64,000 nucleotides of DNA, taken from assembly GCA_002742885.1 (NCBI GenBank), contig PDOO01000029.1, positions 9,043 to 73,042 of the forward strand. The letters are read 5' to 3'. Positions 30,239 through 43,889 of this stretch are shown one piece after another (position 1 is the first letter of the stretch; each line of letters begins with the position of its first letter). A program made the position numbers and the translations under genes. This DNA is from Candidatus Cloacimonadota bacterium. GTDB taxonomy: Bacteria; Cloacimonadota; Cloacimonadia; Cloacimonadales; GCA-2742885. Under the pieces are notes generated by a model. That model was not told the DNA's origin and ran no database searches. It saw nothing but the letters and a program-made list of their open reading frames with translations.

Positions 30239-31360
30239 TTAGGTTACACTACCAAATATATTAATAAAATTCTTTATATCGTTTTTTTTGTGTTCAGAAG
30301 TTACGGTTACTCTCAGAATCGCTTTTTTCAGGGGAACCGAGGGATAACGGGATGCAAGCGCATGGAATCCTTTTTCGAACAGTCGGTTTGATATTTGAAC
30401 CGCTTTTTTTTCTTCGCCGATAAAAATCGGAACTATATGGGAGTTTCCGCCGTAATTTATCTTATTTTTTTGCAGGAGATTTTTAAAAAATTCGGTATTT
30501 TCGCGAAGCCGTTTTCTTTTGTCGTCCGCATCGGCGATGATGTCCAGAATTTCTCCGGCTGTTACGATTACCGCTTCCGGCAACATGGTGGTATAAATAA
30601 TTTCCCGGCATTTGTTCAATAAATATTCTTTGATTATTTCAGGAAGCAGTATAAAAGCTCCGAATAATCCGAAAGCTTTTCCCATTGTTCCGACGACAAT
30701 ATCGCCTTTGTTTATGCCTTTCCCGGCTTCTCCGTAAGCTCCGACGGAATGAGCTTCGTCAACAACGGTAAAGATATTATTCTTTTTTGCCGTCTCAAAA
30801 AAATTATCGTCGAGAAAATCTCCGTCCATGCTGTAAAGAGCTTCCGCAACGGCAACGGAAATATGTGCATTTGCTTTGATTCTTCTTTCCATATGGCTGA
30901 TTTTATTGTGATTAAAACCGATTGATTTGGCGCCTGAAGCTTTTATGCCGGTAACAATGCTGGCGTGGATGCGCTTATCGTACAAAACCGTGTCATCTTC
31001 GGAAAACAGGCTGGAAAACAAGCCGGAATTTGCCTGAAAACCGGAATTAAAAAAAAGACAATCCTCAAAACCGAAATGTCGGGCAAACTTCATCTCAACA
31101 TCTTTTACCGATTGCCGACCGGCGGAAACCAGCCGAGAAGAAGATGCTGATGAGCCGTATTTTAAAATATTGTTTGCCAAAATTTCTTTTACCTGATTTG
31201 ATCCGGCAATTCCCAGAATGTCATTGGATGAAAAATTTATGATTTTTTTGTTTTTCCTAAAAAGAAATATGCCCTCGGCTTTATCGAAAATTCTCGGTTC
31301 CCGAAAAAGGTTTTCTTCTTTTAATAATCTGATGCGTTCCGCTGTTTTTTTTGTAAGCAC
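30239..31360 (-). CDS. bioF: 8-amino-7-oxononanoate synthase
   Basis: Class-II aminotransferase fold with 'DEAHSVGAYGEAGKG' and the PLP-lysine motif 'GTMGKAFG'. It is the last gene of the bio operon. Confidence 0.85.
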   Translation of the reverse strand: MLTKKTAERIRLLKEENLFREPRIFDKAEGIFLFRKNKKIINFSSNDILGIAGSNQVKEILANNILKYGSSASSSRLVSAGRQSVKDVEMKFARHFGFEDCLFFNSGFQANSGLFSSLFSEDDTVLYDKRIHASIVTGIKASGAKSIGFNHNKISHMERRIKANAHISVAVAEALYSMDGDFLDDNFFETAKKNNIFTVVDEAHSVGAYGEAGKGINKGDIVVGTMGKAFGLFGAFILLPEIIKEYLLNKCREIIYTTMLPEAVIVTAGEILDIIADADDKRKRLRENTEFFKNLLQKNKINYGGNSHIVPIFIGEEKKAVQISNRLFEKGFHALASRYPSVPLKKAILRVTVTSEHKKNDIKNFINIFGSVT

Positions 31361-31782
31361 TCAAATACCTTTTTATAATATTTTTGATTTATTTTATTGA
31401 TTTTATCGGATGAAGCGATTTTCAGAAGACCCGTTATTTCTTTTCCGTTTAAAGAGGTCATAACTTTATAAACGCCGACCGATTCCGATTGATTCAGCAA
31501 TTCTGCTTTTACTGTATAATTTCGGTTTTCGGGCAATTCCTCATCAAAATTAAAACTGTCGATGCTGAGCAAAAAATGATGTTTTTCGAAATTATGAAGT
31601 CGGCGTTGATGATAAGTTGCGGTTTGAGCAAATGTTTCCAACAAAAGAAAGTGTTCCGGTTTATCCTGAAAATATTTTTCGGTAATCAGAAATTTATCCG
31701 AAAACAAGGAAATTTTATCCGGCATCAAGTAGTCTTTCAGACCTGTATTGACAACTAATATTTTTTTATTATCAAAGCGCAA
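31321..31782 (-). CDS. hotdog-fold-like protein (FabZ-like 'LLLETFAQ' block, no catalytic His)
   Basis: 153 aa. 'YFQDKPEHFLLLETFAQTA' resembles the FabZ 'HFxxxPxxPGxLxxEAxAQ' block but has Tyr at the His position and retains the Glu. It is translationally coupled to both the KS gene and bioF. Confidence 0.45.
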   Translation of the reverse strand: MRFDNKKILVVNTGLKDYLMPDKISLFSDKFLITEKYFQDKPEHFLLLETFAQTATYHQRRLHNFEKHHFLLSIDSFNFDEELPENRNYTVKAELLNQSESVGVYKVMTSLNGKEITGLLKIASSDKINKINQKYYKKVFECLQKKQRNASDY

Positions 31783-32948
31783 TTTTGTCCTCCGAAACCG
31801 AAATTTTCCAATAAAATACGGTTTAAAGCCGCTTTTCGGGATTTTTTTGCAAAATCAATTTCCTCATCGAGAGAATGAACAAGATTGCGGACGGCAGGAA
31901 TTTTACAATTATTCATAAAGTCAATCATAACGGCTGTTTCCATTGCTCCGCAGGCTGCCGAAAGATGCCCCGTCCAAGATTTCAACGCCGTAACGGGCGG
32001 TGAGGATTTACCGAATATTTGCTTGATTACTTTTGCTTCCGTTTCATCGTTTTTCAAAGTTCCCGTGCCGTGAGCATGGATTAAATCTATTTCCTCCGGT
32101 TTTAAATCTGCTTCCATCAAAGCATTTTTAACGGCTTCGGCGGCAAATTTTCCGTCCGGTCTCGGGTCGGTCATGCTGTATCCGTCCGCCGTGAATCCGC
32201 AACCGACAATTTCTGCTAAAATTTTTGCGTTTCGTTTTTTTGCCGATTCCAATTCTTCCAACAATAAAAATCCTCCTCCTTCGCCCGGAATAAATCCGAA
32301 TCTTTGATTTGAAAAAGAAGCATAATTTTTATCGGGATTTTCGCCTTTAAAGAGAGCGGATGCTTTGTTGTAAGCCGTTATTCCGCCGAGATTTAATCTG
32401 GAATCTCCGCCGCCCGTTAAAATTATGTCCGCTCCGTTATTTTTGATTTCCCGATAAGCCGAAGCAACCGCATGAAGCGAAGCGGCGCAAGCGGAAGTTA
32501 CGGTTCTGTTTTCTCCGTGCAAATCAAATTGTTTGGCAATACAGGCTCCCAAAGTATTGGGTAAAAATTTCAGAATCCAAAGAGCCTGCAAACCGTCCGT
32601 TCCGAAAACGGCATTGTTTATTTCGGGAAAGGATTCCGTAATATCGAGATTGGGACCGGCTCCGATAAAGACCGCGCAATTGTCGGGTAATTCGGTAAAA
32701 CCGCTTTTTTTGATACATTCGGCAGCGGCGGCAAATCCGAGCTTTGCTCCCCGATTCAAATAACGGGCATCTTTGCATCGTTTAACGTAATCTTTAAGAT
32801 TAAAATTTTCTATCGGTAAAATCGGAGTGTCTTTAAACGTTTTAAATTGATAATCGTTCTTTTCGATATTTTCCGAAAATTCGGTGAAATTATTTCCCAA
32901 AGCCGTGATATAAGCGTTTGAGGTTATCGCTACTCGTCTTTTTTTCAT
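31755..32948 (-). CDS. beta-ketoacyl-ACP synthase, KAS I/II (Cys-His-His) type
   Basis: It has the active-site 'VTSACAASLHAV', 'HAHGTGT', 'GHLSAACG' and a C-terminal 'NFGFGGQN'. Confidence 0.9.
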   Translation of the reverse strand: MKKRRVAITSNAYITALGNNFTEFSENIEKNDYQFKTFKDTPILPIENFNLKDYVKRCKDARYLNRGAKLGFAAAAECIKKSGFTELPDNCAVFIGAGPNLDITESFPEINNAVFGTDGLQALWILKFLPNTLGACIAKQFDLHGENRTVTSACAASLHAVASAYREIKNNGADIILTGGGDSRLNLGGITAYNKASALFKGENPDKNYASFSNQRFGFIPGEGGGFLLLEELESAKKRNAKILAEIVGCGFTADGYSMTDPRPDGKFAAEAVKNALMEADLKPEEIDLIHAHGTGTLKNDETEAKVIKQIFGKSSPPVTALKSWTGHLSAACGAMETAVMIDFMNNCKIPAVRNLVHSLDEEIDFAKKSRKAALNRILLENFGFGGQNCALIIKKY

Positions 32949-32957
32949 ATTGTCATC

Positions 32958-33557
32958 TTAAAATTTGCAAAATTCTTCGACCGGCAGTCTGTGAAGAGGC
33001 TCCGGTTTTTCGTCCGGATAACCTATGGCGATAAAACCTTTCAGGTTAAAGTCAAAATCCGTATTTTTATATTCCCTCAAAAAAAACATCGGAGCGGTAT
33101 AAATGCAAAGTCCCAAATCTTCTTCGACGCAAAGCAAAGAAAAATTTTGCAGAGCGATTCCCAAACCGATGTCAACCGGTGTTTCCGTATCCTTGAAAAG
33201 CCCTTTTGAGGCGAGTAATTGCCCCAGACTTTTTCTGTCCGCCGTGCCGAAAGCCAAAGAAAGGGGAGCATCGGCAAAAGCTTTTCCGAAGCGGTAATAA
33301 GTTTTTATTTTATAAATGTCTCTTTCCGATAAATCCGGGCAGGTAAGAATGTCTTCTTTTTCCTTTTCCATGTGAGAAAGCAACTCTTTTTTATCGTCCT
33401 CGGTCAAGACCGTAAATCGGCAGGATTGGCAATTTGACGGAGAAGCGTAAAATCTGGCGGCATCGGCTATTTTTCGTAAAATTTCTTCGGGAACGGATTC
33501 ATTTTTAAATTTTCGGCAGCTTCGTCTTTTTTTTATCAGTGAATATAAATCTTTCAT
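32958..33557 (-). CDS. nitroreductase-family flavoprotein
   Basis: 'LIKKRRSCRKFKNESVPEE' is the typical N-terminal RxSxRxF motif. The length is 199 aa, and the start overlaps the ACP stop (ATGA). Confidence 0.8.
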   Translation of the reverse strand: MKDLYSLIKKRRSCRKFKNESVPEEILRKIADAARFYASPSNCQSCRFTVLTEDDKKELLSHMEKEKEDILTCPDLSERDIYKIKTYYRFGKAFADAPLSLAFGTADRKSLGQLLASKGLFKDTETPVDIGLGIALQNFSLLCVEEDLGLCIYTAPMFFLREYKNTDFDFNLKGFIAIGYPDEKPEPLHRLPVEEFCKF

Positions 33558-33919
33558 GATTTTTCCTTTTCATATTCGGCGTAAGCAATAACATCTTTTA
33601 TTTTGATGACGGGAGCGTTCGGCAAATCTTCGATAATTTCTTTGATTCTTTCACTTGAAAGATGAGGGTAAGATTCGCTTAAAACTTCTTCCGGATTTTT
33701 ATTTTCATTTTCAGCTTCTTTCATAATCAATCTCAAATCACGCAAAAAAAGTTTGCTGTCGCTTACATGTATTCCGAATTCCGCATTCAGAGAAATTCCG
33801 ATTTCCAGCAGGTCAATTGATTCAGCTTCCAAATCTCTGACGAGATAATCTTCTTCCGATATATTTTCCGCTTCCAAATCAAGCAATTCGGCGGTAATTT
33901 CTTTAATTTTTTTATTCAT
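33554..33919 (-). CDS. acyl-carrier-protein-like protein with C-terminal extension
   Basis: 'RDLEAESIDLLEIGISLNAEFGI' fits the ACP helix II phosphopantetheine site (D/E-S-[LI]-D). At 121 aa it is about 40 aa longer than canonical ACP. Confidence 0.65.
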   Translation of the reverse strand: MNKKIKEITAELLDLEAENISEEDYLVRDLEAESIDLLEIGISLNAEFGIHVSDSKLFLRDLRLIMKEAENENKNPEEVLSESYPHLSSERIKEIIEDLPNAPVIKIKDVIAYAEYEKEKS

Positions 33920-33925
33920 GGTTCC

Positions 33926-34633
33926 TCACTTGGCAATATTCATTCCGCCGTCAATTGTTATGACCGAGCCGTTAAACGAAGCGGAATTTTCATTTATTAT
34001 CATATTGATTGTGTTGACGATACTTTCGGCGGAAACGGGATTTTTGTCCGGTATTTTATTTAAGGCTTCCGGATTTTCGGCAAGATAATCTTTTCCTCTG
34101 CCGAGATTTAAATAACCGGGACGAATTACGGTACAGGATATTCCTTTGCGGGCAAGCTCAATGCCGACCGCTTTGTAAATCTGCTCACAGGCAAGTTTGG
34201 CGGAAGAATAAAAACCCTGACCGGGATTAATTTTACTTGCGGCGCTTGAAGAAATATAAATCATTTTACCGTGTTTTTGTCTCAACATTTTCCCGGCGAT
34301 AAGTTTAATAAGAGCAATGCGGTTGATTACATTTGTTTTGTAAAAATCCGATATTTTGTCATAATCGGCGGCAGCAACCAGAGATTCGTAATTTCCCTGA
34401 GCAAAATCCGCAACCGCATCAATTTGTTTTACGGAAGCCAATATTTCGGTAAACGATTCGGGAGCGGAAAAATCCGTTTTTATCGGTATGAGTTTAGGAT
34501 TTTTGATATTTTCAAGTCGCATAAGACTTTCTTTGCTTCGGTAACCTGCCCAAAAATTGTAATCCGCCGATCCGATAAAACTCAAACCGAGTTCGCAACC
34601 TGCCCCGAGAACCAAAATATTTTTATTTTGCAT
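33926..34633 (-). CDS. SDR-family oxidoreductase (FabG-like ketoreductase)
   Basis: Rossmann 'ILVLGAGCELG', catalytic 'SSSAA' Ser and 'YSSAKLACE' (YxxxK). Confidence 0.8.
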   Translation of the reverse strand: MQNKNILVLGAGCELGLSFIGSADYNFWAGYRSKESLMRLENIKNPKLIPIKTDFSAPESFTEILASVKQIDAVADFAQGNYESLVAAADYDKISDFYKTNVINRIALIKLIAGKMLRQKHGKMIYISSSAASKINPGQGFYSSAKLACEQIYKAVGIELARKGISCTVIRPGYLNLGRGKDYLAENPEALNKIPDKNPVSAESIVNTINMIINENSASFNGSVITIDGGMNIAK

Positions 34634-34913
34634 AGAATACTCCGCTTACCGCTTTTTTATCGAATTGTTCCAGAATAATTTTTATTTTTTTGCCTTCGCA
34701 AACCCATTTTAAAAGGCATTTATCCGGTTTTACGAAAACTCCGAAGCGAAATTTTTCCGCTTTCGAGATGCGACAATTTTCCTCTTTTTCGATTATTTCT
34801 TTGCATTTGCCGATAATCAAAGCTCCGGGAACAACCGGGTTTCCGGGAAAGTGGAAATCATATATTTTATCTGATTTATCGAAAATCAAATCGATTTTTT
34901 TGTAACTTTGCAT
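34623..34913 (-). CDS. mini hotdog protein with FabZ-type His motif
   Basis: 96 aa. 'HFPGNPVVPGALIIGKC' matches the FabZ 'HFPxxPVMPGVLxxE' motif, except that the catalytic Glu position is Gly. Confidence 0.6.
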   Translation of the reverse strand: MQSYKKIDLIFDKSDKIYDFHFPGNPVVPGALIIGKCKEIIEKEENCRISKAEKFRFGVFVKPDKCLLKWVCEGKKIKIILEQFDKKAVSGVFYAK

Positions 34914-36244
34914 ATCGCATTTACGGTTACGTTCAACAACGTCTCAAGTTCCCGTTCGTTGATAACCAAAGGCGGCATTAAAATAATGACGTTGCCGAGA
35001 GGACGAATTATTGCGCCGTTTTTACGCGCTTCCAAGGTAACTTGATGTCCGATTCTCAAAGCCGGTTCAAATTCTTCTTTTGATGCTTTGTCTTTTACGA
35101 GTTCTGCTCCGACCATCATTCCGCATTGTCTTATATCTCCGACATTGGGGTGATCAGCTAATTTCTTCATGGCTTTTGCAATTTGTTCGGCGCGTAATTT
35201 TACATTTTCCAAAACGTTATTTTTTCGGAATAATTCCAGGTTGGCGAGAGCTGCCGCGCAAGCGACCGGATTTCCGGTGAAAGTGTGTCCGTGAAAAAAA
35301 GTTCGGAAATCTTCGTATTTTCCCAAGAAACCCCGATAAATTTTTTCCGTAACAAAGGTGGCGGCAAGCGGAAGATAACCTGCCGAAATTCCTTTGGCAA
35401 CCGCCATTAAATCGGGTTTTACGTTTTCCTGTTCGCAGGCAAATAATGTTCCCGTTTTCCCGAATCCGACCGCAACTTCGTCGCAAATCATCAAAATATC
35501 GTATTTTGAGCAAAGTTCTCTTACTTTGGCAAGGAATCCTTTCGGATGAACGATTAATCCGCCGGCTCCCTGCACAAGCGGTTCTATGACGAGAGCTCCG
35601 ATTTCTTCGGCTCCGTTTTTCATTATTTCTTCCAATTGTTCGGAACAAAATTTAAGCGTTTCCTCTTCCGACATTCCGCCGTTAAGACGATAGGAAAAAG
35701 GAGAATCCGCCTTGACGGTCTCAAAAATCAAACCTCCGTAAACTTTGTGAAAAAGATCAATTCCGCCTGCGCTTACGGAACCTATCGTGTCGCCGTGATA
35801 AGCGTTTTTGAAAGAGATAAATTTTTTCTTTTCGGGTTTCCCGTTTTGTTGATTGTATTGATAAGCAATTTTTAAAGCAATTTCAACGGCTTCGGAACCG
35901 CTGTCGGAATAAAAAACTTTGGTCAGATTTTCCGGCGTAATTTCAATTAATTTTTCAGCCAATTCTATTGCCGGAACGTTTCCGACTCCCAACATGGTGG
36001 TGTGGGATATTTTATCGATTTGCTCTTTCATGGCTTTATTTAATTCAGGATGATTGTGTCCGTGAACGTTGGTCCAGATGGAAGCAACGCCGTCTATATA
36101 TTTTTTCCCGTTTACGTCTGTCAAAAATACGCCTTCGCCTGATTCTATAACAGGATATTCTTCTTCGACGAAACCCTGCATTTGCGAAAACGGATACCAA
36201 AGATTTTTATCGGATTTTTCTTTAAGCAATTTATATCTTTTCAT
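34886..36244 (-). CDS. bioA: adenosylmethionine-8-amino-7-oxononanoate aminotransferase
   Basis: Class-III aminotransferase with 'YSDSGSEAVEIALKIA' and 'CDEVAVGFGKTGTLFA'. 452 aa. Confidence 0.9.
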   Translation of the reverse strand: MKRYKLLKEKSDKNLWYPFSQMQGFVEEEYPVIESGEGVFLTDVNGKKYIDGVASIWTNVHGHNHPELNKAMKEQIDKISHTTMLGVGNVPAIELAEKLIEITPENLTKVFYSDSGSEAVEIALKIAYQYNQQNGKPEKKKFISFKNAYHGDTIGSVSAGGIDLFHKVYGGLIFETVKADSPFSYRLNGGMSEEETLKFCSEQLEEIMKNGAEEIGALVIEPLVQGAGGLIVHPKGFLAKVRELCSKYDILMICDEVAVGFGKTGTLFACEQENVKPDLMAVAKGISAGYLPLAATFVTEKIYRGFLGKYEDFRTFFHGHTFTGNPVACAAALANLELFRKNNVLENVKLRAEQIAKAMKKLADHPNVGDIRQCGMMVGAELVKDKASKEEFEPALRIGHQVTLEARKNGAIIRPLGNVIILMPPLVINERELETLLNVTVNAICKVTKKSI

Positions 36245-37214
36245 AATTAAGCTCCAGTTTTTTTATCATTTTATTGTCGTTTGATATTGCTCTGCCGCTT
36301 GTGGTCAAATAGTTTCCGATCATGATGCCGTTTGCTCCCGCTCTGAATAATTCTTCCTGTTTTTCTCCCAAAATAAGTTCTCTTCCTCCGGCTATGCCGA
36401 TGGGAGTTTGGGGATTTATGAGTCTGAAAAGAGCAATTGTCTTTAAGGCTTCTTCGGCAGACAGAAGTTTTTGATTTTCCAATCTCGTTCCTTTAATCGG
36501 ATTAAGAAAGTTAAGAGGAATGGAATCAACTTTCATTTTTTTTAAGGTAAAAGCAAGTTCCGTTCGCTGTTTCCAAGATTCTCCCAAACCGATGATTCCT
36601 CCGCAACAAATTTTCATGCCTGCAGCCGAGGCAATTTCAATTGTTTTGTAATCCTCCTCCAAAGTATGCGTAGAGCATATTTCCGAGAAATAACTCGGAG
36701 CAGTTTCCAAATTATGATGAAAACGTTCCACGCCCGCTTCAACCAGCATTTTCGCTTTTTCTTCCGTCAACATTCCCAATGATCCGCAGAGGGCAAGATC
36801 GGTTTTTTCTTTTAAAGCGCGAGCAGCTTTGCAAATAATTTCCAGTTCCTTTTCCGTAACCGAATGTCCGGCGGTAACAAAAGAATATTGAGTTGCGTTT
36901 TGTTCGGCGTTTCGTAATCCGCTTTCAACTAATTTATCATAAGACACTAAAGGATAAATTTTTACTCCCGTTTCATGATGAACGGATTGAGCGCAAAAAG
37001 CGCAGTTTTCGGGACAGTGTCCGGATTTTGCATTTAAAATACTGCAAGTAAATATTTTGTCTGAATGGAACTTTTCCCGTAAAAAATTCGTTGCAGGAGC
37101 CAAATCAGCCCAAGTTATTTTATCGTCTTCGGCAATTTTTATCGCCGTTTCTTCGGAAATATTGCCGTTTTCAATTAAATCATCTTCTTCCGCATAAGGA
37201 ATATTAAATTTCAT
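36231..37214 (-). CDS. bioB: biotin synthase (radical SAM)
   Basis: 'CPENCAFCAQS' is the CxxxCxxC cluster. 'YSFVTAG' and 'CCGGIIGLGE' are BioB blocks. Confidence 0.9.
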   Translation of the reverse strand: MKFNIPYAEEDDLIENGNISEETAIKIAEDDKITWADLAPATNFLREKFHSDKIFTCSILNAKSGHCPENCAFCAQSVHHETGVKIYPLVSYDKLVESGLRNAEQNATQYSFVTAGHSVTEKELEIICKAARALKEKTDLALCGSLGMLTEEKAKMLVEAGVERFHHNLETAPSYFSEICSTHTLEEDYKTIEIASAAGMKICCGGIIGLGESWKQRTELAFTLKKMKVDSIPLNFLNPIKGTRLENQKLLSAEEALKTIALFRLINPQTPIGIAGGRELILGEKQEELFRAGANGIMIGNYLTTSGRAISNDNKMIKKLELNYEKI

Positions 37215-37695
37215 TTCAACCTCTGTAATTTAATTACGAAGATTACAAATTTCAAGCAGTCCGTAAGCTGTCAAATACAATACCGATAAACTTAGCTCGC
37301 GATGATCTGAATCAGGCAGCAGAATAAATTATCGTTAAAATTTTATTCTCTGAAAAGCCGTAAATTCAATTCTGAGGGGCGCAACTTATGTTGCTCGGTA
37401 AATTTTAGTTTCTCGAAGCAAATGCCGGAAATATGCGGTTTAATAATTCACTTCCCGGATTTCGTCAACTTTTGTTGTCTTGTTGAAAATCATGTTGCGA
37501 TTCAGTTAAAATATATGTTTTAAAAAATTATATTCTTATATGCAAATATGTTATAATCTTATTCTTTTTTTATTTTTCGCCTTTGGCATAATTTTTGTTG
37601 GAAAGGAAGGGCATTGCGAAATAATATTTCGGAATTTTAAGATGTTTATTTTGCTTGATAAAAAACAGTGATTTTAACCATGTAAGGAGGAATAA

Positions 37696-39024
37696 ATGAA
37701 ACTGGAAATAGGAAATTTCCAAGTCAAAGATGCAGTCTTCGGCGATAAGACTTCATTTGCAGACGGAATTTTAACCGTAAATAAACAGGAAGCTCTGGAT
37801 TACGTAAGGGAAGATTCTCATATTACCTTTGCGGACATCGAAATTGCTCGTCCCGGAGAATCGATTCGTATCGTCCCCATAAAAGAAGCTGTCGAACCCA
37901 GAGTTAAATTGGACGGAACGCCTCTTTTTCCCGGGGTAACCGGTGATTTGGCAAAATGCGGAAACGGAAAGTCTCATGCTCTTAAAGGTTGCAGCGTTAT
38001 GGCTGTCGGAAAACATTGGGGAAGCTTCGGAGACGGCTTGCTTGATATGAGCGGAGAAGGAGCAAAATATTCTTATTTCTCCCAATTAATTAATATTTGT
38101 CTGGTGGTTGATACCGACGAAGAATTTGAAAGATACGAGCAACAAAAGAAAAACAGAGCCATTCGCTGGGCTGCTCATAAGTTGGCTGAATTCATCGCCG
38201 AAAAATCAATCAAAGATTTGGAACCGGAATCGGTTGAAACTTTTGAATTGGAGCCGATTACCAAAAGAGGCGAGAAATTCAATGATCTTCCAAGCGTTGT
38301 TTTGGTTATGCAACCTCAATCTCAGATGGAAGAAGCCGGATACAATGATCTTGTTTACGGTTGGGATTTGAATAATTTCGTTCCTACTTTCATGCATCCG
38401 AACGAAGTTCTTGACGGAGCTCTTATTTCCGGAAGTTTCATGCCTTGCTCTTCAAAATGGTCAACTTACGACTTCCAGAATTTCCCTACAATTAAAGAAT
38501 TATACAGCCGTCACGGCAAAGAAATAAATTTCCTCGGCGTTATCATGAGCAATCTTAACGTTGCTCTCGACCAAAAACAGCGTTCGGCTCAATTTGTGGC
38601 TCAAATCGCCAAAACGTTAGGAGCCGACGGCGCCATCGTAACCGAAGAAGGTTACGGAAATCCTGATACAGACTACATTGCCTGCATTGCAGCTTTGGAA
38701 GATGTCGGAGTAAAAGTTGTCGGGATCAGCAATGAGTGTACCGGACGCGACGGAGCTTCACAGCCATTGGTTGCCTTGGATACAAAAGCCGATGCTTTGG
38801 TCTCCACCGGCAATGTTTCGCATCTTATCAAGCTTCCGCCCATGGATAAAGTTATCGGCGAATTGGAAGCTTTGGCTCGCGACGGTCTTTCAGGCGGTTG
38901 GGCTGATGATGAAATCTTGGGTTCTTCCGTAAAAGAAGACGGATCCGTTATTATGGAAAATAACGCAATGTTCTGCGGAGATCAGATTGCCGGCTGGTCA
39001 ACCAAAACCATGAAAGAATTTTAG
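37696..39024 (+). CDS. glycine/sarcosine/betaine reductase component B, GrdE/GrdG/GrdI-type subunit
   Basis: 442 aa. 'MKLEIGNFQVKD...', 'FMHPNEVLDGALISG' and its position directly upstream of the Sec-containing GrdB-type gene support the call. There is a strong SD (AAGGAGG). Confidence 0.85.
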   Translation: MKLEIGNFQVKDAVFGDKTSFADGILTVNKQEALDYVREDSHITFADIEIARPGESIRIVPIKEAVEPRVKLDGTPLFPGVTGDLAKCGNGKSHALKGCSVMAVGKHWGSFGDGLLDMSGEGAKYSYFSQLINICLVVDTDEEFERYEQQKKNRAIRWAAHKLAEFIAEKSIKDLEPESVETFELEPITKRGEKFNDLPSVVLVMQPQSQMEEAGYNDLVYGWDLNNFVPTFMHPNEVLDGALISGSFMPCSSKWSTYDFQNFPTIKELYSRHGKEINFLGVIMSNLNVALDQKQRSAQFVAQIAKTLGADGAIVTEEGYGNPDTDYIACIAALEDVGVKVVGISNECTGRDGASQPLVALDTKADALVSTGNVSHLIKLPPMDKVIGELEALARDGLSGGWADDEILGSSVKEDGSVIMENNAMFCGDQIAGWSTKTMKEF

Positions 39025-39035
39025 GAAGGTTTGAA

Positions 39036-40385
39036 ATGAAAAAAGCAATATTATACATAAATCAGTTTTTTGCGGGAATAGGCGGAGAAGATAAAGCCGA
39101 TCATGCTCCGGAAATTCGCGAAGGATTAGTCGGTCCCGCCCTTGCTCTCAATGATGTTCTTGATGCTGAAATTACTCATACCGTAGTTTGCGGCGATAAC
39201 TTTATGGGTTCAAAAACGGAAGAAGCAATAGATACGATTATCGGATTTCTCGACGGTAAGGACTTTGACATTTTCTTTGCAGGTCCCGCTTTCAGAGCAG
39301 GACGTTACGGAGTTGCCTGCGGGCATATTTGCAAAGCTGTTAAGGAAAAATTCAATGTTCCGGTTATTACATCCATGAACGAAGAAAATCCGGGTGTTGA
39401 AATGTTCAAAGCTGAAATGCCTGTTTTTAAAGGCGGTAAAAGCGCTGCCAAGATGCGCGCAGACGTCAAAAAAATGGCGAAATACGCCAATAAGATTTTG
39501 AATGGCGAAGAAACTCTCGGAGCTGATGCAGAAGGTTATTTCCCTCGCGGCATCAGACAGCAGGTTTGGTTGAAAGGAGAAGAAGCTGTTTCTGCCGCAA
39601 AACGCGGCGTTGACATGCTTATCAAAAAAATGAGCGGTCTTCCTTATCAAACCGAATTAGTTATTCCGAAAGTTGATATGGTTCCGATTGCTGCTCCGGT
39701 TAAGGATCTTTCCAAAGCCAGAATCGCAATTGTTACCAGCGGCGGTATTGTCCCGGTTGATAATCCTGACAAAATTCAGTCTGCTTCTGCTACTCGCTGG
39801 GGAAAATACGATATTTCCATGTTAGACAGATTGCCGGCAGCCGGAGACGATTCTCCCGAATCAAATCCGCATAAAGCTTACAAAACAATTCATGCCGGTT
39901 ATGATCCGGCGGCGGCAGATACCGATCCCAACAGAGTTGTTCCTTTGGATGCCCTTCGCGCTTATCAAAAAGAAGGAAAAATCGGCTCGGTTGCCAAATA
40001 TTTCTATTCAACCGTAGGAACCGGAACTACTCAGGCTGAAGCTGCCAGAATGGGAAATGAGATAGTTGAACATCTCCGCGAAGATAATACGGATGCTGTT
40101 ATAATGACATCTACGTGAGGCACTTGCACACGTTGCGGCGCAACGATGCTTAAAGAAATTGAAAGAGCCGGTTTCCCGATTGTCCAAATGGCAAATCTTA
40201 TTCCTGTTTCCGTTTCAGTCGGAGCCAATAAAATTGTTCCGACCATTTCCATTCCTTATCCGTTGGGAGACCCGAATACTCCTGCCGAAGATCAATGGAA
40301 ATTGCGTTATCACAGAGTCGGAGTCGCTCTTGATGCTTTGACTGCCGACATAAAAGAACAAACAATATTTAAAGTTAAAATCTAA
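39036..40385 (+). CDS. glycine/sarcosine/betaine reductase component B selenoprotein (GrdB/F/H type), Sec at codon 361
   Basis: Track ORFs 39036..40118 and 40146..40385 are in frame across TGA 40116-40118. The junction reads 'IMTST-U-GTCTRCGATM', the GrdB-family UxxCxxC selenocysteine site. Confidence 0.9.
40131..40145 (+). promoter_or_regulatory. SECIS-like hairpin after the grdB-type TGA
   Basis: CGUUGC-GGC-GCAACG has a 6-bp stem and starts 12 nt after the UGA. Confidence 0.5.
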
Positions 40386-40443: not shown

Positions 40444-41928
40444 ATGAAGAAACAAAATCAAACGGTATTCTACGTATCATTTATCGTAACCCTTGCGATA
40501 TCCCTTTGGGGAATGCTTGCTCCCGAGACTTTCGGAAAGCAGGCTCAGACGTTATTCAATTATTTGACGACAAATTTCGGTTGGCTTTATTTAATTACAA
40601 TGTTTTCCTTTATAGGTTTTTCTCTTTATTTGGCGGGCAGTAAATACGGTTCCGTTAAACTTGGAAAGGATGACTCTGAACCGGAGTACAGTTATATCTC
40701 ATGGTTTGCCATGCTTTTCAGCGCAGGTATGGGCATCGGATTGGTTTTTTGGGGAATTGCCGAACCTCTAAACCATTACATGTCTCAATGGGGAGCCGAA
40801 CCCGGAACTGCTCAGGCGGCGGATTTTGCCATAAAAAAATCTTTCTTTCACTGGGGACTTCATCCATGGGCAGGTTACAGCGTTGTAGCTTTGGCTTTGG
40901 CTTATATGCAATTCAGAAAGAATAAACCCGGGCTTATTTCGAGTATTTTTATTCCTGTTTTGGGAGATGATGCGCAACATACGCTTGTCGGAAAAATAAT
41001 AGATATTCTGGCTATTTTTGCTACTGTTGCCGGAGTTGCCACCTCTTTGGGCATGGGAACTCTCCAAATTGAAAGCGGTTTAAATTATTTGTTTGGGGTT
41101 CCGATAAATACCGTTACGGAGATTATCATTATAATAGCGGTAACATTCTTGTTTATGCTTTCGGCGATAACCGGTTTGGATAAAGGAATTAAGATACTGT
41201 CTAATTGCAATTTAAGCCTTGCCGGTCTTTTGATGATTTTAGGTTTGATTATCGGACCGACCGTAATGATCATAAATGCTTTTACCAATGGTATCGGCAT
41301 GTATTTTCAAGATATTATTCAAGACAGTTTTAATGTTGAAGCATTCGGCAACAATAGTTTTGTTAACGGCTGGACAATTTTTTATTGGGCATGGTGGATT
41401 GCCTGGGCTCCTTTTGTGGGCGTATTTATTGCCAGAATTTCCCGGGGGAGAACTATTCGCGAATTTGTAACAGGAGTTCTTCTTGTTCCCGCATTGGGTT
41501 CTTTTCTCTGGTTTGCCATTTTCGGAACTATGGGGATTGCTCAAGGTTCGGAAGTTGCCTCTGAAGCAATTAAATCGACTCCTACCGCTCTTTTTGTGGT
41601 AATGGGGCATTATCCCATGGGAGCCGTTATAAGTTTTGTTGCAGTTATTTTGCTTTGTACTTTCTTTGTAACTTCTGCCGATTCAGCCACTTTTGTTTTG
41701 GGAATGATGTCGCAAAACGGAAATCTTAATCCGGATACCAAACGTAAAGTCGTTTGGGGAATTATCCAGTCATTGTTGGCTTTGGCGCTGATGTTGACCG
41801 GCGGTTTAAAAGCATTGCAGACGGGATCCATCGTTGCTGCTTTTCCGTTCCTTTTTGTAATGATTTTTGCGATGTACTCTTTCTTTAAGGCATTGAAAAG
41901 CGACGATAAGTTTAAGAAAAACAAGTAA
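40444..41928 (+). CDS. BCCT-family (betaine/carnitine/choline) transporter
   Basis: 494 aa with about 12 TM segments. 'ISWFAMLFSAGMGIGLVFWGIAEP' and 'WTIFYWAWWIAWAPFVGVFIARISRGRTIREF' form the BCCT Trp-rich signature. Confidence 0.9.
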   Translation: MKKQNQTVFYVSFIVTLAISLWGMLAPETFGKQAQTLFNYLTTNFGWLYLITMFSFIGFSLYLAGSKYGSVKLGKDDSEPEYSYISWFAMLFSAGMGIGLVFWGIAEPLNHYMSQWGAEPGTAQAADFAIKKSFFHWGLHPWAGYSVVALALAYMQFRKNKPGLISSIFIPVLGDDAQHTLVGKIIDILAIFATVAGVATSLGMGTLQIESGLNYLFGVPINTVTEIIIIIAVTFLFMLSAITGLDKGIKILSNCNLSLAGLLMILGLIIGPTVMIINAFTNGIGMYFQDIIQDSFNVEAFGNNSFVNGWTIFYWAWWIAWAPFVGVFIARISRGRTIREFVTGVLLVPALGSFLWFAIFGTMGIAQGSEVASEAIKSTPTALFVVMGHYPMGAVISFVAVILLCTFFVTSADSATFVLGMMSQNGNLNPDTKRKVVWGIIQSLLALALMLTGGLKALQTGSIVAAFPFLFVMIFAMYSFFKALKSDDKFKKNK

Positions 41929-42182: not shown

Positions 42183-43385
42183 ATGATGAATGAAATCTAT
42201 GATCTTATAATAATCGGCGGCGGACCGGGAGGATTATCTGCCGGTGTTTATGCGGCTCGCTCTAAAATGAAGACTTTATGTCTGGAAGAGAAAAGAAGAG
42301 TCGGCGGTCAATGCGCAACTACTACGGAAATGGAAAATTATCCGGGTATTCTTGAGTCAACGGGACCGGGTTTGATGGATAATTTCCGAGCTCACTGCGA
42401 AAAATTCGGAGTTGAGTTCAGAAGAGGAAAAGTCGATTCTTTGGAGATTGCGGAAGACGGATTCATTAAAACGGTCAATACTCAAAAAGGCGAAAAAATT
42501 TACGGTAAATCCATTATCATTTCAACAGGAGCCGAGGCTAGAGTTTTAGGTATTCCGGGCGAAAGAGAATTACGAGGACGCGGTGTTTCTTATTGCGCAA
42601 CTTGCGATGCCGATTTTTTTGAAGACCTTGATATAATTGTTGTGGGAAGCGGAAATACGGCAGTTGAAGAATCTGTGTTTCTGACTAAATTCGTGAATAA
42701 AATAACAATGGTTATCCTTCATGAAGAAGGAAAAATGGATGCCGATAAAACTGCTCAAGAACAATGTCTGGCGAATGAAAAAATCGATTATATCTGGAAT
42801 TCCACGGTTGAAGAAATAGTCGGAGATGAGCTGGTTACCGGAGTCAGGGTTAAAAATATTAAAACCGGAGAAATCAGTGAAGTCGAATGCGACGGAGTTT
42901 TTATGTTTGTGGGAACGGTTCCAAAAACTGATTTTGTAAAAGATTTAATTGAACTCACTCCTCATAAATATATAAAAACAACCGAAAAAATGGAAACAAA
43001 TATTCCCGGTATTTTTGCCGCAGGAGATGTTCGGGATAAATATCTTCGTCAAGTCGTAACAGCAGCCGGAGACGGCGCAATTGCCGCAGTAGCCGCAGAA
43101 AAATACGTTGAAAACGAAGAAATGTGGCAAAAAAATGTTTTGAAAGCCGAGAAACCGGTTGTCGTTGCTTTTTGGAGTCCTGTAAATAAAGAAAGTATGG
43201 CTGTTTTGACGAAATTGGAAGTCGCAGAAAGAGATGAATACGATCTTGTAAAAATAGATGCCTACAAAGATTCCATGTTGGCAGATCGATACGGAGTAAA
43301 AGAACTTCCCGCAGTTCTCAGATTTGAATCCGGTAAATTGATTAAGAAATACGATCTTGAAAAAGAACTGGACGAAATAATTTGA
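42183..43385 (+). CDS. trxB: thioredoxin-disulfide reductase fused to a Cys-less thioredoxin-fold C-terminal domain
   Basis: 'DLIIIGGGPGGLSAG', redox 'CATCDADFF', 'VVGSGNTAVEES' and 'GIFAAGDV' identify TrxB. The C-terminal roughly 90 aa, 'PVVVAFWSPVNKESMAVL...ELPAVLRFESGKL', is Trx-like but has no CxxC. Confidence 0.88.
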   Translation: MMNEIYDLIIIGGGPGGLSAGVYAARSKMKTLCLEEKRRVGGQCATTTEMENYPGILESTGPGLMDNFRAHCEKFGVEFRRGKVDSLEIAEDGFIKTVNTQKGEKIYGKSIIISTGAEARVLGIPGERELRGRGVSYCATCDADFFEDLDIIVVGSGNTAVEESVFLTKFVNKITMVILHEEGKMDADKTAQEQCLANEKIDYIWNSTVEEIVGDELVTGVRVKNIKTGEISEVECDGVFMFVGTVPKTDFVKDLIELTPHKYIKTTEKMETNIPGIFAAGDVRDKYLRQVVTAAGDGAIAAVAAEKYVENEEMWQKNVLKAEKPVVVAFWSPVNKESMAVLTKLEVAERDEYDLVKIDAYKDSMLADRYGVKELPAVLRFESGKLIKKYDLEKELDEII

Positions 43386-43436
43386 TAAATATTTAACGCA
43401 TAAAACAATTAATACTTTATAACAAAGGAGTCATAA

Positions 43437-43889
43437 ATGTTAAAAGGAAAAAAAGTCATCGCTATAGGCGACAGAGACGGAATTCCCGGTCCGGCTATTG
43501 AAGAATGCGCAAAATCAGCCGGCGCGGAAGTAATATTTGCTTCAACCGAATGCTTTGTCTGAACGGCTGCCGGAGCTATGGATCTGGAGATCCAAAAAAG
43601 AGTTAAAGAATTGGCTGAAAAAGAAGGAAAAGAAAACCTGGTAGTATTGCTCGGAGGAGCCGAAGCCGAGGCTTCCGGATTGGCTGCCGAAACAGTTCTT
43701 ACCGGCGATCCGACTTTTGCGGGACCTCTTTCCGGAGTTGCATTGGGACTTGACGTTTATCACATCACCGAACAGGAAATTAAAGATGAAGTAAATGCCG
43801 AAGTTTATGAAGAACAATGCGGAATGATGGAAATGGTTCTTGATGTTGATGAAATTAAAAGCGAAATGGATGAAATACGTAACGCTTAG
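43437..43889 (+). CDS. grdA: glycine/sarcosine/betaine reductase complex selenoprotein A, Sec at codon 42
   Basis: I hand-translated from ATG 43437: '[42 protein letters not shown](TGA 43560)-TAAGAMDLE...', in frame with track ORF 43578..43889. 'CFVUTAAGAMD' is the GrdA active-site signature. Confidence 0.95.
43580..43593 (+). promoter_or_regulatory. SECIS-like hairpin after grdA TGA
   Basis: GGAUC-UGGA-GAUCC starts 17 nt after the UGA. A weaker GCU-GCCGG-AGC stem precedes it. Confidence 0.45.

What the first reader, a model, noticed from the sequence alone, without database searches (positions are those of the whole stretch)
31321..34913. Two hotdog proteins with complementary halves of the FabZ catalytic dyad, suggesting a heterodimeric dehydratase
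The 96-aa protein (34623..34913) carries 'HFPGNPVVPGALIIGKC'. This is the FabZ His motif, but with Gly where FabZ has the catalytic Glu (HFxxxPxxPGxLxxE). The 153-aa protein (31321..31782) carries 'YFQDKPEHFLLLETFAQTA'. This has the Glu-Ala/Thr-x-Ala-Gln block, but Tyr at the His position. In FabZ/FabA the active site forms at the dimer interface from the His of one subunit and the Glu/Asp of the other. A His-only plus Glu-only pair would therefore give one complete site per heterodimer. The alignment was done by eye from remembered motifs, so it is tentative.
Basis: inference. Interest (0 to 1): 0.6.

Follow-up and report, generated by a model that had tools for sequence, protein, structure and literature searches.

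The report
Split-site dehydratase pair in biotin operon
Two small genes in an unusual biotin-synthesis operon each carry only half of a dehydratase active site, so they most likely pair up as one enzyme; this design is already known from another pathway but has not been described for this one.

Summary
The 96-aa protein (34623-34913, minus strand) is a minimal FabZ-like hotdog. It has the catalytic His (His21) but Gly35 where FabZ has its Glu. The 153-aa protein (31321-31782, minus strand) is a confidently predicted hotdog. It has an invariant Glu49 in an ExxAQ helix motif that aligns with the FabZ Glu, and Tyr37 at the His position. Both patterns hold across each family: His in 120/120 relatives but an acid at +14 in only 3/120; Glu in 113/113 with a variable His position.

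The two genes sit in one operon, bioB-bioA-hd96-SDR-ACP-nitroreductase-KAS-hd153-bioF. This is the Desulfovibrio-type extended biotin cluster, which is genetically required for biotin synthesis in D. vulgaris (Trotter 2023) but biochemically uncharacterised. Here it occurs in a Cloacimonadota genome. The two hotdog genes co-occur in 19 intact loci.

The closest solved structure to the 96-aa model is ApeI of the ApeI:ApeP heterodimeric dehydratase, which has a single active site. ApeP likewise has the Glu but no His.

The heterodimer reading is therefore well supported by analogy. I rate it a new variant of a known kind, of moderate interest.

The parts
36231..37214 (-). bioB, biotin synthase; first gene of the operon
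   Evidence: TIGR00433 bioB, E=9.8e-117, above cutoff
34886..36244 (-). bioA, adenosylmethionine-8-amino-7-oxononanoate transaminase
   Evidence: TIGR00508 bioA, E=1.7e-165, above cutoff
34623..34913 (-). hd96: a minimal (96 aa) FabZ/ApeI-like hotdog and the proposed His-donating subunit. It has His21 but Gly35 at the FabZ Glu position
   Evidence: Pfam FabA E=5e-4, below cutoff. Family profile vs FabZ PDB chains E=2e-7. AF2 pLDDT 93.1 with strand-helix-four-strand topology. Foldseek top hit 6qsr_A (ApeI), TM 0.80. The ATG start at 34913 is preferred over NCBI's 88-aa start, because strand 1 (residues 3-10) aligns with conserved residues of homologues
34803..34853 (-). His motif HFPGNPVVPGALIIGKC (His21 to Cys37; Gly35 at +14)
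33926..34633 (-). SDR, FabG-like 3-oxoacyl-ACP reductase (Ser129/Tyr142/Lys146 conserved)
   Evidence: Pfam adh_short_C2 E=8.5e-19; invariant residues in 15 loci
33554..33919 (-). Dedicated acyl carrier protein, 121 aa, with a conserved C-terminal extension
   Evidence: PP-binding E=1.6e-6; Ser34 and the extension residues are invariant in 17 loci
32958..33557 (-). Nitroreductase-family flavoprotein; candidate enoyl-ACP reductase
   Evidence: PF00881 E=3.7e-21. This role was proposed by Trotter 2023; here it is an inference
31755..32948 (-). FabF-like beta-ketoacyl-ACP synthase (Cys154/His293/His328)
   Evidence: TIGR03150 fabF E=2e-80, below its equivalog cutoff; triad invariant in 18 loci
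31321..31782 (-). hd153: a FabZ-like hotdog with an extra C-terminal helix and the proposed Glu-donating subunit. It has Glu49 but Tyr37 at the FabZ His position. No Pfam family matches it
   Evidence: 119 relatives in the exhaustive search. Glu49 in 113/113. AF2 pLDDT 90.2. Foldseek hits FabZ at E about 1e-5. Profile vs PDB FabZ E=0.002
31579..31674 (-). Central-helix segment YFQDKPEHFLLLETFAQTATYHQRRLHNFEKH. It carries Tyr37, Glu49, Ala52, Gln53, His58, Arg60 and His68
   Evidence: Conservation: E49 113/113, Q53 112, H58 110, R60 108 (+5 K), H68 102
30239..31360 (-). bioF, 8-amino-7-oxononanoate synthase; overlaps the end of hd153 by 40 nt
   Evidence: TIGR00858 bioF E=2.9e-86, below the equivalog cutoff but the best family; coordinates

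Best explanation
The two hotdog proteins are the two different subunits of one 3-hydroxyacyl-ACP dehydratase. It belongs to a dedicated, fatty-acid-synthase-like pathway that builds pimeloyl-ACP for biotin.

In FabZ/FabA dimers, each active site is made from the His of one subunit and the Glu/Asp of the other. Here hd96 supplies only the His (His21) and hd153 supplies only the Glu (Glu49). A hd96:hd153 heterodimer would therefore have one complete site. The symmetry-related site (Tyr37 of hd153 plus Gly35 of hd96) would be dead. This is the arrangement of ApeI:ApeP and of fused double-hotdog PKS dehydratase domains.

The proposed pathway runs as follows. The cluster's own ACP carries malonate. 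The FabF-like KAS extends it while keeping the free omega-carboxylate. The SDR reduces the 3-oxo group. hd96:hd153 dehydrates 3-hydroxyglutaryl-ACP and then 3-hydroxypimeloyl-ACP. The nitroreductase-like flavoprotein (or a housekeeping enzyme) reduces the enoyl. BioF takes pimeloyl-ACP, and BioA and BioB continue the pathway.

What is shown: the fold, which half of the dyad each protein carries, conservation across each family, operon linkage, and genetic necessity of the orthologous cluster in D. vulgaris.

What is inferred: the heterodimer itself, the substrates, and the idea that the invariant His58/Arg60/His68 of hd153 line the acyl tunnel and bind the omega-carboxylate. Arg60 is at Glu+11, the position of Phe83 in the H. 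pylori FabZ tunnel.
For: 1. Complementary dyad, confirmed by profile alignment to solved FabZ chains and a joint alignment with E. coli FabZ, ApeI and ApeP.

2. The pattern holds across each family. His is in 120/120 hd96 relatives but an acid at +14 in only 3/120. Glu is in 113/113 hd153 relatives with no conserved His at the FabZ position.

3. Both are confidently predicted hotdogs. In both, the key residue sits five residues into the central helix, as inferred for FabZ from the alignment.

4. The order hd96-SDR-ACP-(NTR)-KAS-hd153-bioF is conserved in Cloacimonadota and Desulfobacterota. Both genes are present in 15/15 intact loci found through hd153 and 4/4 found through hd96.

5. Precedent. 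The top structural hit of hd96 is 6qsr_A, ApeI of 'The Dehydratase Heterocomplex ApeI:P'. E. coli ApeP has ELMAQ with Phe at the His column, and ApeI has the His. ApeI/ApeP are described as heterodimeric with a single active site (PMC8041823). Precomputed Pfam annotation marks hd96 relatives as PF22818 ApeI-like.

6. Genetics. Nine clustered genes (DVU2558:DVU2565) are specifically needed without biotin. The cluster includes two FabZ-like genes, DVU2560 and DORF42491 (PMC10102598). The range DVU2558:DVU2565 gives only eight locus tags, so I infer that both FabZ-like genes are among the nine; the text read does not list them. If so, the two hotdog genes are not redundant.

7. The H. pylori FabZ tunnel pocket includes Gly79 and Phe83, at +7 and +11 from Glu72 (PMC2692856). 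hd153 has a small residue at +7 and an invariant Arg at +11.
Against: - No direct test of interaction or interface geometry was possible.
- hd153 does not match Pfam ApeP-like. The hd96 relatives tested reach ApeI-like only at E about 0.02 with the library I could run, and the window's own hd96 gave no ApeI-like hit there at E<=10. hd96 scores higher against FabZ than against ApeI. The pair is therefore analogous to ApeI:P, not demonstrably derived from it.
- hd153 has other invariant His residues (His58, His68) whose positions I could not inspect in 3D. A self-sufficient, non-canonical site in hd153 is not excluded.
- 72% of hd96 relatives have His at +14, which may have a role of its own.
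- One Bilophila hd96 homologue has Glu at +14.
- In one MAG the hd153-bioF pair is separated from the rest of the cluster.
- The substrates have never been shown biochemically.
Confidence: 0.62

Rival explanations
1. hd96 is the whole dehydratase, working as a homodimer. It uses His21 with some other group (water, backbone, or the frequent +14 His) in place of the Glu. hd153 is a non-catalytic hotdog partner that only shapes the substrate pocket or docks the special ACP, like HadA/HadC beside the catalytic HadB.
For: Heterodimers with one catalytic and one structural hotdog subunit exist, such as HadAB/BC/BD (papers listed). hd96 keeps the full FabZ His motif. 72% of relatives have His at +14.
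Against: The window's own hd96 has Gly at +14, and across the family this position is H/N/Q/R/S/W/G, which is not a conserved catalytic group. By contrast, hd153 keeps Glu49, Ala52 and Gln53 essentially invariant in the exact FabZ ExxAQ register. That conservation is hard to explain for a purely structural subunit.
Confidence: 0.15
2. hd153 is not a dehydratase subunit. It is a hotdog thioesterase or other acyl-ACP-handling enzyme that uses Glu49 as base or nucleophile. It might set chain length or release/transfer the C7 product to BioF. hd96 would act separately.
For: Foldseek hits of the hd153 model include 4-hydroxybenzoyl-CoA thioesterase (3r34, E=2.9e-5), PA1618 and HI1161 thioesterases alongside FabZ. 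hd153 is always coupled to bioF, even when the rest of the cluster is absent nearby. Its extra invariant residues His58, Arg60, His68 and Tyr105 have no FabZ counterpart.
Against: The only significant sequence-profile hits are FabZ chains, with Glu49 on the catalytic Glu and the ExxAQ motif shared. All top nine Foldseek hits are FabZ entries. Free pimelate would need a BioW-type ligase, and none is in these clusters. This reading would also leave the pathway with a dehydratase that lacks its acid.
Confidence: 0.1
3. The complementary pattern has no functional meaning. The two proteins are degenerate FabZ paralogues that do not interact, and dehydration is done by the housekeeping FabZ.
For: Neither protein passes a curated FabZ/FabA cutoff. 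No interaction data exist.
Against: Motifs are strongly conserved in hundreds of relatives. Synteny is strict across two phyla. The orthologous D. vulgaris cluster gives a specific biotin phenotype.
Confidence: 0.04

Closest known systems
ApeI:ApeP dehydratase heterocomplex of aryl-polyene type II PKS clusters (PDB 6QSR; Pfam PF22818 ApeI-like and PF22817 ApeP-like)
   Same: - It has two different single-hotdog subunits encoded several genes apart in one FAS-like cluster.
- The small subunit (ApeI, 117 aa) carries the HFxxxPxxPG His.
- The roughly 154-aa subunit (ApeP) has Glu in ExxAQ and no His (Phe in that column).
- It is described as having a single active site per heterodimer.
- ApeI is the best structural match of hd96.
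   Different: - hd153 gives no match to ApeP-like.
- The hd96 relatives tested match ApeI-like only weakly, at E about 0.02 (cutoff not reached); the window's own hd96 gave no ApeI-like hit in my scan.
- hd96 is shorter (96 aa) and closer in sequence to FabZ than to ApeI.
- E. coli and X. doucetiae ApeI keep an Asp at +14, whereas hd96 has Gly or His.
- The pathway is primary metabolism with presumed omega-carboxy C5/C7 substrates and full reduction, not a polyene.
Desulfovibrio-type extended biotin cluster (Rodionov 2004; Trotter et al. 2023, DVU2558-DVU2565 with DVU2560 and DORF42491 'FabZ-like')
   Same: It has the same gene content and order: bio genes bracketing the small hotdog, SDR, ACP, KAS and the second hotdog next to bioF. 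Some Desulfobacterota also have an in-cluster nitroreductase. The window's genes are orthologues of this cluster.
   Different: The window's genome is Cloacimonadota. The paper found the cluster only in Desulfobacterota and Chrysiogenetes. The paper does not mention a split dyad or a heterodimer. There is no bioD or birA in this operon.
FabZ / FabA homodimeric 3-hydroxyacyl-ACP dehydratases
   Same: They share the hotdog fold, the His motif and the ExxAQ helix motif. The active site is built across the dimer interface from the His of one chain and the Glu/Asp of the other.
   Different: Each FabZ chain has both residues, giving two sites per dimer. Here each chain has one residue. Both proteins score below the curated FabZ/FabA cutoffs. 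hd96 lacks about 35 N-terminal residues of FabZ, and hd153 adds a C-terminal helix.
Double-hotdog dehydratase domains of modular PKS / PUFA synthases
   Same: The His is in the N-terminal hotdog and the acid (DxxxQ/H) is in the C-terminal hotdog, giving one site per pseudo-dimer. The MlnB DH domain (5hst) is among the Foldseek hits of hd96. The position of the two residues in the two halves is from established knowledge.
   Different: Those are fused into one chain and use Asp. Here there are two separate genes four genes apart, and the acid is Glu.
HadAB/HadBC/HadBD heterodimeric dehydratases of mycobacterial FAS-II
   Same: They are obligate heterodimers of two hotdog proteins with a single active site (papers listed).
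   Different: They are MaoC/hydratase-2 type. The whole catalytic dyad lies in HadB and the partner is non-catalytic. The dyad is not split between chains.

Membership tests
FabZ/FabA 3-hydroxyacyl-ACP dehydratase | Single hotdog fold (long central helix wrapped by an antiparallel sheet) | tested here: met
   AF2 models have pLDDT 90.2 and 93.1 with helix-in-sheet topology. Foldseek hits FabZ chains with probability 1.00.
FabZ/FabA 3-hydroxyacyl-ACP dehydratase | Catalytic His in the HFxxxPxxPG motif in every chain | tested here: not met
   hd96 has it (His21; 120/120 in its family). hd153 has Tyr37, and that column is variable in its family.
FabZ/FabA 3-hydroxyacyl-ACP dehydratase | Catalytic Glu/Asp 14 residues after the His, on the central helix, in every chain | tested here: not met
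   hd153 has Glu49 (113/113). hd96 has Gly35, and only 3/120 relatives have an acid there.
FabZ/FabA 3-hydroxyacyl-ACP dehydratase | Score above the curated family cutoffs (Pfam PF07977; NCBIfam fabZ/fabA) | tested here: not met
   hd96 scores 20.1 bits against a 23-bit cutoff. hd153 has no Pfam hit. NCBIfam FabZ scores are 18.9 and 13.9 bits against a 113-bit cutoff.
ApeI:ApeP-type heterodimeric dehydratase | A small His-bearing hotdog subunit resembling ApeI | tested here: met
   The best Foldseek hit is 6qsr_A (ApeI), TMq 0.80, E=2.5e-5. The His motif is shared. Precomputed Pfam gives PF22818, weak for the window protein and unmarked for relatives.
ApeI:ApeP-type heterodimeric dehydratase | A larger subunit with Glu in ExxAQ and no catalytic His (ApeP-like pattern) | tested here: met
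   hd153 has Glu49 and no His. E. coli ApeP has ELMAQ with Phe in the His column. The sizes are 153 and 154 aa.
ApeI:ApeP-type heterodimeric dehydratase | Sequence membership of Pfam PF22818 (ApeI-like) and PF22817 (ApeP-like) at the curated cutoffs | tested here: not met
   The window's hd96 has no PF22818 hit at E<=10. Its relatives reach 15 bits against a 28.5-bit cutoff. hd153 and its relatives have no PF22817 hit. hhalign of the hd153 family against ApeP gives probability 25%.
ApeI:ApeP-type heterodimeric dehydratase | The two subunits form a physical heterocomplex with the His and Glu facing each other | not testable with these tools
Desulfovibrio-type extended bio cluster (dedicated pimeloyl-ACP synthesis) | bioB/bioA/bioF bracketing an ACP, a FabF-like KAS, an SDR and two FabZ-like genes, with or without a nitroreductase-like gene | tested here: met
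   The same order is seen in 22 Desulfobacterota loci and 4 more loci. The cluster is described in PMC10102598.
Desulfovibrio-type extended bio cluster (dedicated pimeloyl-ACP synthesis) | Genes required for growth without biotin | not testable with these tools
   This was shown only for D. vulgaris Hildenborough by RB-TnSeq. No data exist for this organism.

The most novel reading that the evidence does not exclude
The hd96:hd153 pair is a dedicated dehydratase for omega-carboxy-acyl-ACPs. Its catalytic dyad is split between two chains. Its Glu subunit has replaced hydrophobic FabZ tunnel residues with an invariant His58/Arg60/His68 set that binds the free distal carboxylate. This would be the structural trick that lets a FAS-like machine make pimeloyl-ACP directly from malonyl-ACP, without the BioC/BioH methyl-ester disguise. 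It would define the enzymology of a further route to the pimelate moiety of biotin, a route that reaches beyond Desulfobacterota into Cloacimonadota.
Probability: 0.3. Interest if true: 0.6.

Novelty: new variant of a known kind. Interest (0 to 1): 0.45.

Why it matters
How Desulfovibrio-type anaerobes make the pimelate part of biotin has been open since the cluster was noticed in 2004. In 2023 it was shown only genetically.

Reading the two 'FabZ-like' genes as one split-site heterodimer explains why both would be needed. It also tells biochemists to co-express them, since either protein alone is predicted to be inactive. It names the residues to mutate: His21 of hd96 and Glu49 of hd153. It points to candidate carboxylate-binding residues (Arg60, His58, His68) that could explain how a free dicarboxylate is handled.

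The finding also gives the 153-aa family its first functional hypothesis; it has about 119 representative clusters and no Pfam model. It extends the pathway to Cloacimonadota. It is incremental rather than surprising, because the same architecture is solved for ApeI:ApeP.

Tried and rejected
- **Heterodimer prediction.** The interface could not be modelled.
- **Word-based homologue search.** Single sequences found only 2-3 relatives each. Profiles and the exhaustive search were needed.
- **The search for related loci with the 92-sequence alignment.** It failed because no conserved stretch was found. A 10-sequence alignment worked.
- **Rosetta-stone fusions.** The two long hd153 relatives (476 and 325 aa) only carry low-complexity insertions and extensions, not a second hotdog.
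- **Are hd96/hd153 simply ApeI/ApeP orthologues?** Rejected at the sequence level.
- **Is hd153 a thioesterase?** Kept as a minor rival, not rejected outright.
- **Literature.** I found no later paper on the pathway and no mention of a heterodimer in Trotter 2023.
- **bioD, birA or housekeeping fabZ in the window.** None found.

Full report
**What is at the coordinates**

Both ORFs are real and lie on the minus strand: 34623-34913 (96 aa, 'hd96') and 31321-31782 (153 aa, 'hd153'). The quoted peptides are present exactly. They are two genes of one tightly packed, overlapping minus-strand operon:

- bioB (36231-37214)
- bioA (34886-36244)
- hd96
- an SDR/FabG-like reductase (33926-34633)
- a 121-aa acyl carrier protein (33554-33919)
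- a nitroreductase-family flavoprotein (32958-33557)
- a FabF-like ketoacyl synthase (31755-32948)
- hd153
- bioF (30239-31360)

The identical proteins are on record from a Candidatus Cloacimonadota MAG.

**The observation checked by proper alignment**

hd96 on its own only just misses the Pfam FabA cutoff (20.1 against 23 bits). A 13-sequence profile of its family hits solved FabZ chains at E=2e-7. It aligns HFPgnPvvPGsliihaf with HFPKRPVMPGVLIIEAL, so the residue 14 after the His (Gly35 in the window) falls on the catalytic Glu.

hd153 has no Pfam hit. An exhaustive HMMER search found 119 relatives. A 92-sequence profile hits FabZ chains at E=0.002, with 'liEalAQ' on 'IVEALAQ', so Glu49 falls on the catalytic Glu.

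AlphaFold2 gives confident hotdog models:
- hd153: pLDDT 90.2, two strands, helix 44-62, four strands, plus an extra C-terminal helix 130-145.
- hd96: pLDDT 93.1, strand 3-10, helix 30-45, four strands.

In both models the key residue is five residues into the central helix. Foldseek places hd153 with FabZ chains. It places hd96 first with ApeI (6qsr_A) and then with FabZ chains.

**The pattern holds across each family**

In 120 hd96 relatives the His motif is always present. The +14 residue is H86 N10 Q10 R4 S3 W2 D2 Y1 G1 E1, so it is acidic in only 3.

In 113 hd153 relatives Glu49 is invariant. Ala52, Gln53, His58, Arg60 (or Lys), His68, Phe70, Leu71, Tyr105 and Tyr136 are nearly invariant. 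The position equivalent to the FabZ His is variable, with T, S, R and H the commonest residues.

So one family is characteristically 'His-only' and the other 'Glu-only'.

**Linkage**

A scan of one genome per species found 22 loci with an hd153 relative, all from Desulfobacterota-type lineages by record title (Syntrophales, Desulfobacterales, Halodesulfovibrio, Bilophila; three are labelled only 'Deltaproteobacteria' or 'Proteobacteria').

- Wherever the contig reaches far enough and the cluster is intact, the order hd96-SDR-ACP-(nitroreductase)-KAS-hd153-bioF is the same. This holds in 14 loci plus the window.
- Starting instead from four hd96 relatives on long contigs, all four loci have an hd153-family ORF between KAS and bioF.
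- Exceptions: in one MAG, hd153-bioF sits behind pgk without the rest of the cluster nearby. One cluster is decayed.
- A second Cloacimonadota-like metagenome contig has nitroreductase-birA-KAS-hd153-bioF.

**What the cluster is**

This is the 'extended' biotin cluster first noted in Desulfovibrio. Trotter et al. 2023 showed by RB-TnSeq that nine clustered genes (DVU2558:DVU2565) are specifically needed without biotin. [quoted passage not shown] They say the biochemistry is undefined (PMC10102598).

The range DVU2558:DVU2565 gives only eight locus tags. I therefore infer that the ninth gene is DORF42491 and that both hotdog genes are individually required; the text I read does not list the nine genes.

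The paper reports the cluster from Desulfobacterota and Chrysiogenetes only. It does not mention a heterodimer or a hotdog fold. I found no later work.

The other enzymes look catalytically competent: KAS Cys154/His293/His328, SDR Ser129/Tyr142/Lys146 and ACP Ser34 are invariant across loci.

**Mechanism proposed**

In FabZ the site is formed by His58 of one subunit and Glu72' of the other, at the kink of a tunnel on the dimer interface (PMC2692856).

A hd96 homodimer would pair His21 with Gly35'. A hd153 homodimer would pair Tyr37 with Glu49'. Neither site is complete. A hd96:hd153 heterodimer gives one complete site (His21 + Glu49') and one dead site.

The precedent is solved. PDB 6QSR is 'The Dehydratase Heterocomplex ApeI:P', and its ApeI chain is the best structural match of hd96 (TM 0.80). 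[quoted passage not shown] I fetched E. coli CFT073 ApeI and ApeP. ApeI (117 aa) has the His. ApeP (154 aa) has ELMAQ with Phe at the His column. That is the same division of labour and the same size classes as hd96/hd153.

As in the aryl-polyene cluster, the two genes are several genes apart.

**Limits of the analogy**

- hd153 does not match Pfam ApeP-like. The hd96 relatives tested reach ApeI-like only at E about 0.02 in the library I could run, and the window's hd96 gave no ApeI-like hit there. The precomputed, newer Pfam annotation does mark the hd96 family as PF22818.
- hhalign probabilities to single ApeI/ApeP sequences are low.
- The hd96 HMM scores E. coli FabZ (32.5 bits) above ApeI (18.2 bits). 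The hd153 HMM scores both FabZ and ApeP near zero.

I therefore treat the pair as working like ApeI:P, not as members of those families.

**A further inference**

In H. pylori FabZ the pocket near the catalytic site includes Gly79 and Phe83, at +7 and +11 from Glu72 on the same helix. hd153 has a small residue at +7 and an invariant Arg60 at +11, flanked by invariant His58 and, at the start of the next strand, His68.

A positively charged end of the tunnel would suit the free omega-carboxylate of glutaryl and pimeloyl intermediates. It also fits Trotter's guess that these active sites are less hydrophobic.

This rests on an ungapped helix alignment and not on inspected coordinates. I give it roughly 30%.

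**What could not be done**

**Rivals**

- hd96 is the sole catalyst and hd153 is a structural partner. The invariant ExxAQ of hd153 and the non-conserved +14 of hd96 make this unlikely.
- hd153 is a thioesterase-like enzyme. Some thioesterase fold hits appear, but the sequence profile points to FabZ, and free pimelate would need a ligase that these clusters lack.
- There is no functional relation. Conservation, synteny and the genetics contradict this.

**Verdict**

It is a new variant of a known kind: an ApeI:P-style split-dyad dehydratase recruited to a known but biochemically uncharacterised biotin pathway, seen here in a phylum not previously listed for it.

Interest is moderate (0.45). 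The result is useful and directly testable, but not surprising to a specialist.

Noticed in passing
window 39036-40385 (+) and about 43434-43889 (+): Two glycine-reductase selenoproteins with in-frame TGA codons. GrdB reads through TGA at 40116-40118 ('IMTST*GTCTRCGATM'). GrdA reads 'STECFV*TAAGAMD'. The mechanical ORF list splits each into two ORFs. They lie in a grd cluster (Gly_reductase 37696-39024, BCCT transporter 40444-41928, thioredoxin-reductase/thioredoxin fusion 42183-43385) divergent from the bio operon.
   Followed up: partly
window 33554-33919 (-): The cluster's ACP is 121 aa. An ACP domain (Ser34) is followed by a C-terminal extension of roughly 60 aa whose residues Pro85, Arg91, Pro103, Asp109 and Tyr113 are invariant in 17 related loci. 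The extension has no family match and its role is unknown.
   Followed up: partly
window 32958-33557 (-): A nitroreductase-family flavoprotein is embedded in the FAS-like part of the bio operon. This placement is conserved in most related loci but absent from the Halodesulfovibrio and Bilophila loci. It is the only candidate for the missing enoyl-ACP reductase, as suggested in Trotter 2023.
   Followed up: partly
whole window: tblastn finds no bioD, birA or housekeeping fabZ in the 64 kb. Related loci carry bioD right after bioF (L027-L029), and L001 has birA inside the cluster. Here bioF is followed by a 65-aa ORF, an ArsR-type regulator and an SdpI-like membrane protein.
   Followed up: yes
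window 37221-37244: An imperfect palindrome, TGTAAT-N12-ATTACA, lies just upstream of the bioB ribosome-binding site, in the 480-bp intergenic region shared with the divergent grd operon. It may be a BirA-type operator.
   Followed up: no
L006 8178-9724; L020 9489-11550: In one Deltaproteobacteria MAG, hd153-bioF sits directly behind gyrA-gpsA-pgk, with none of the other cluster genes within 8 kb. In one Desulfobacterium assembly the cluster is decayed: KAS is truncated, bioF is split, and a 1025-aa ORF lies on the opposite strand in between.
   Followed up: partly
L021 2313-2840 (Bilophila) and statistics: A few hd96 relatives (3/120, plus the Bilophila homologue) do carry Glu or Asp at +14, and 72% carry His there. 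The dead second site may therefore not be equally dead in all lineages.
   Followed up: partly
window 34886-34913: The start of hd96 is ambiguous. The ATG at 34913 gives 96 aa and overlaps bioA by 28 nt. NCBI calls an 88-aa product starting at a TTG that overlaps the bioA stop (TTGA). Homologue alignment and the predicted first strand favour the longer form.
   Followed up: yes
window 32001-36000: GC content is 0.40-0.41 across the FAS-like core of the operon, against about 0.35 in the preceding 30 kb. Together with the mainly Desulfobacterota distribution, this might reflect lateral acquisition. The downstream grd region is also GC-richer, however.
   Followed up: no
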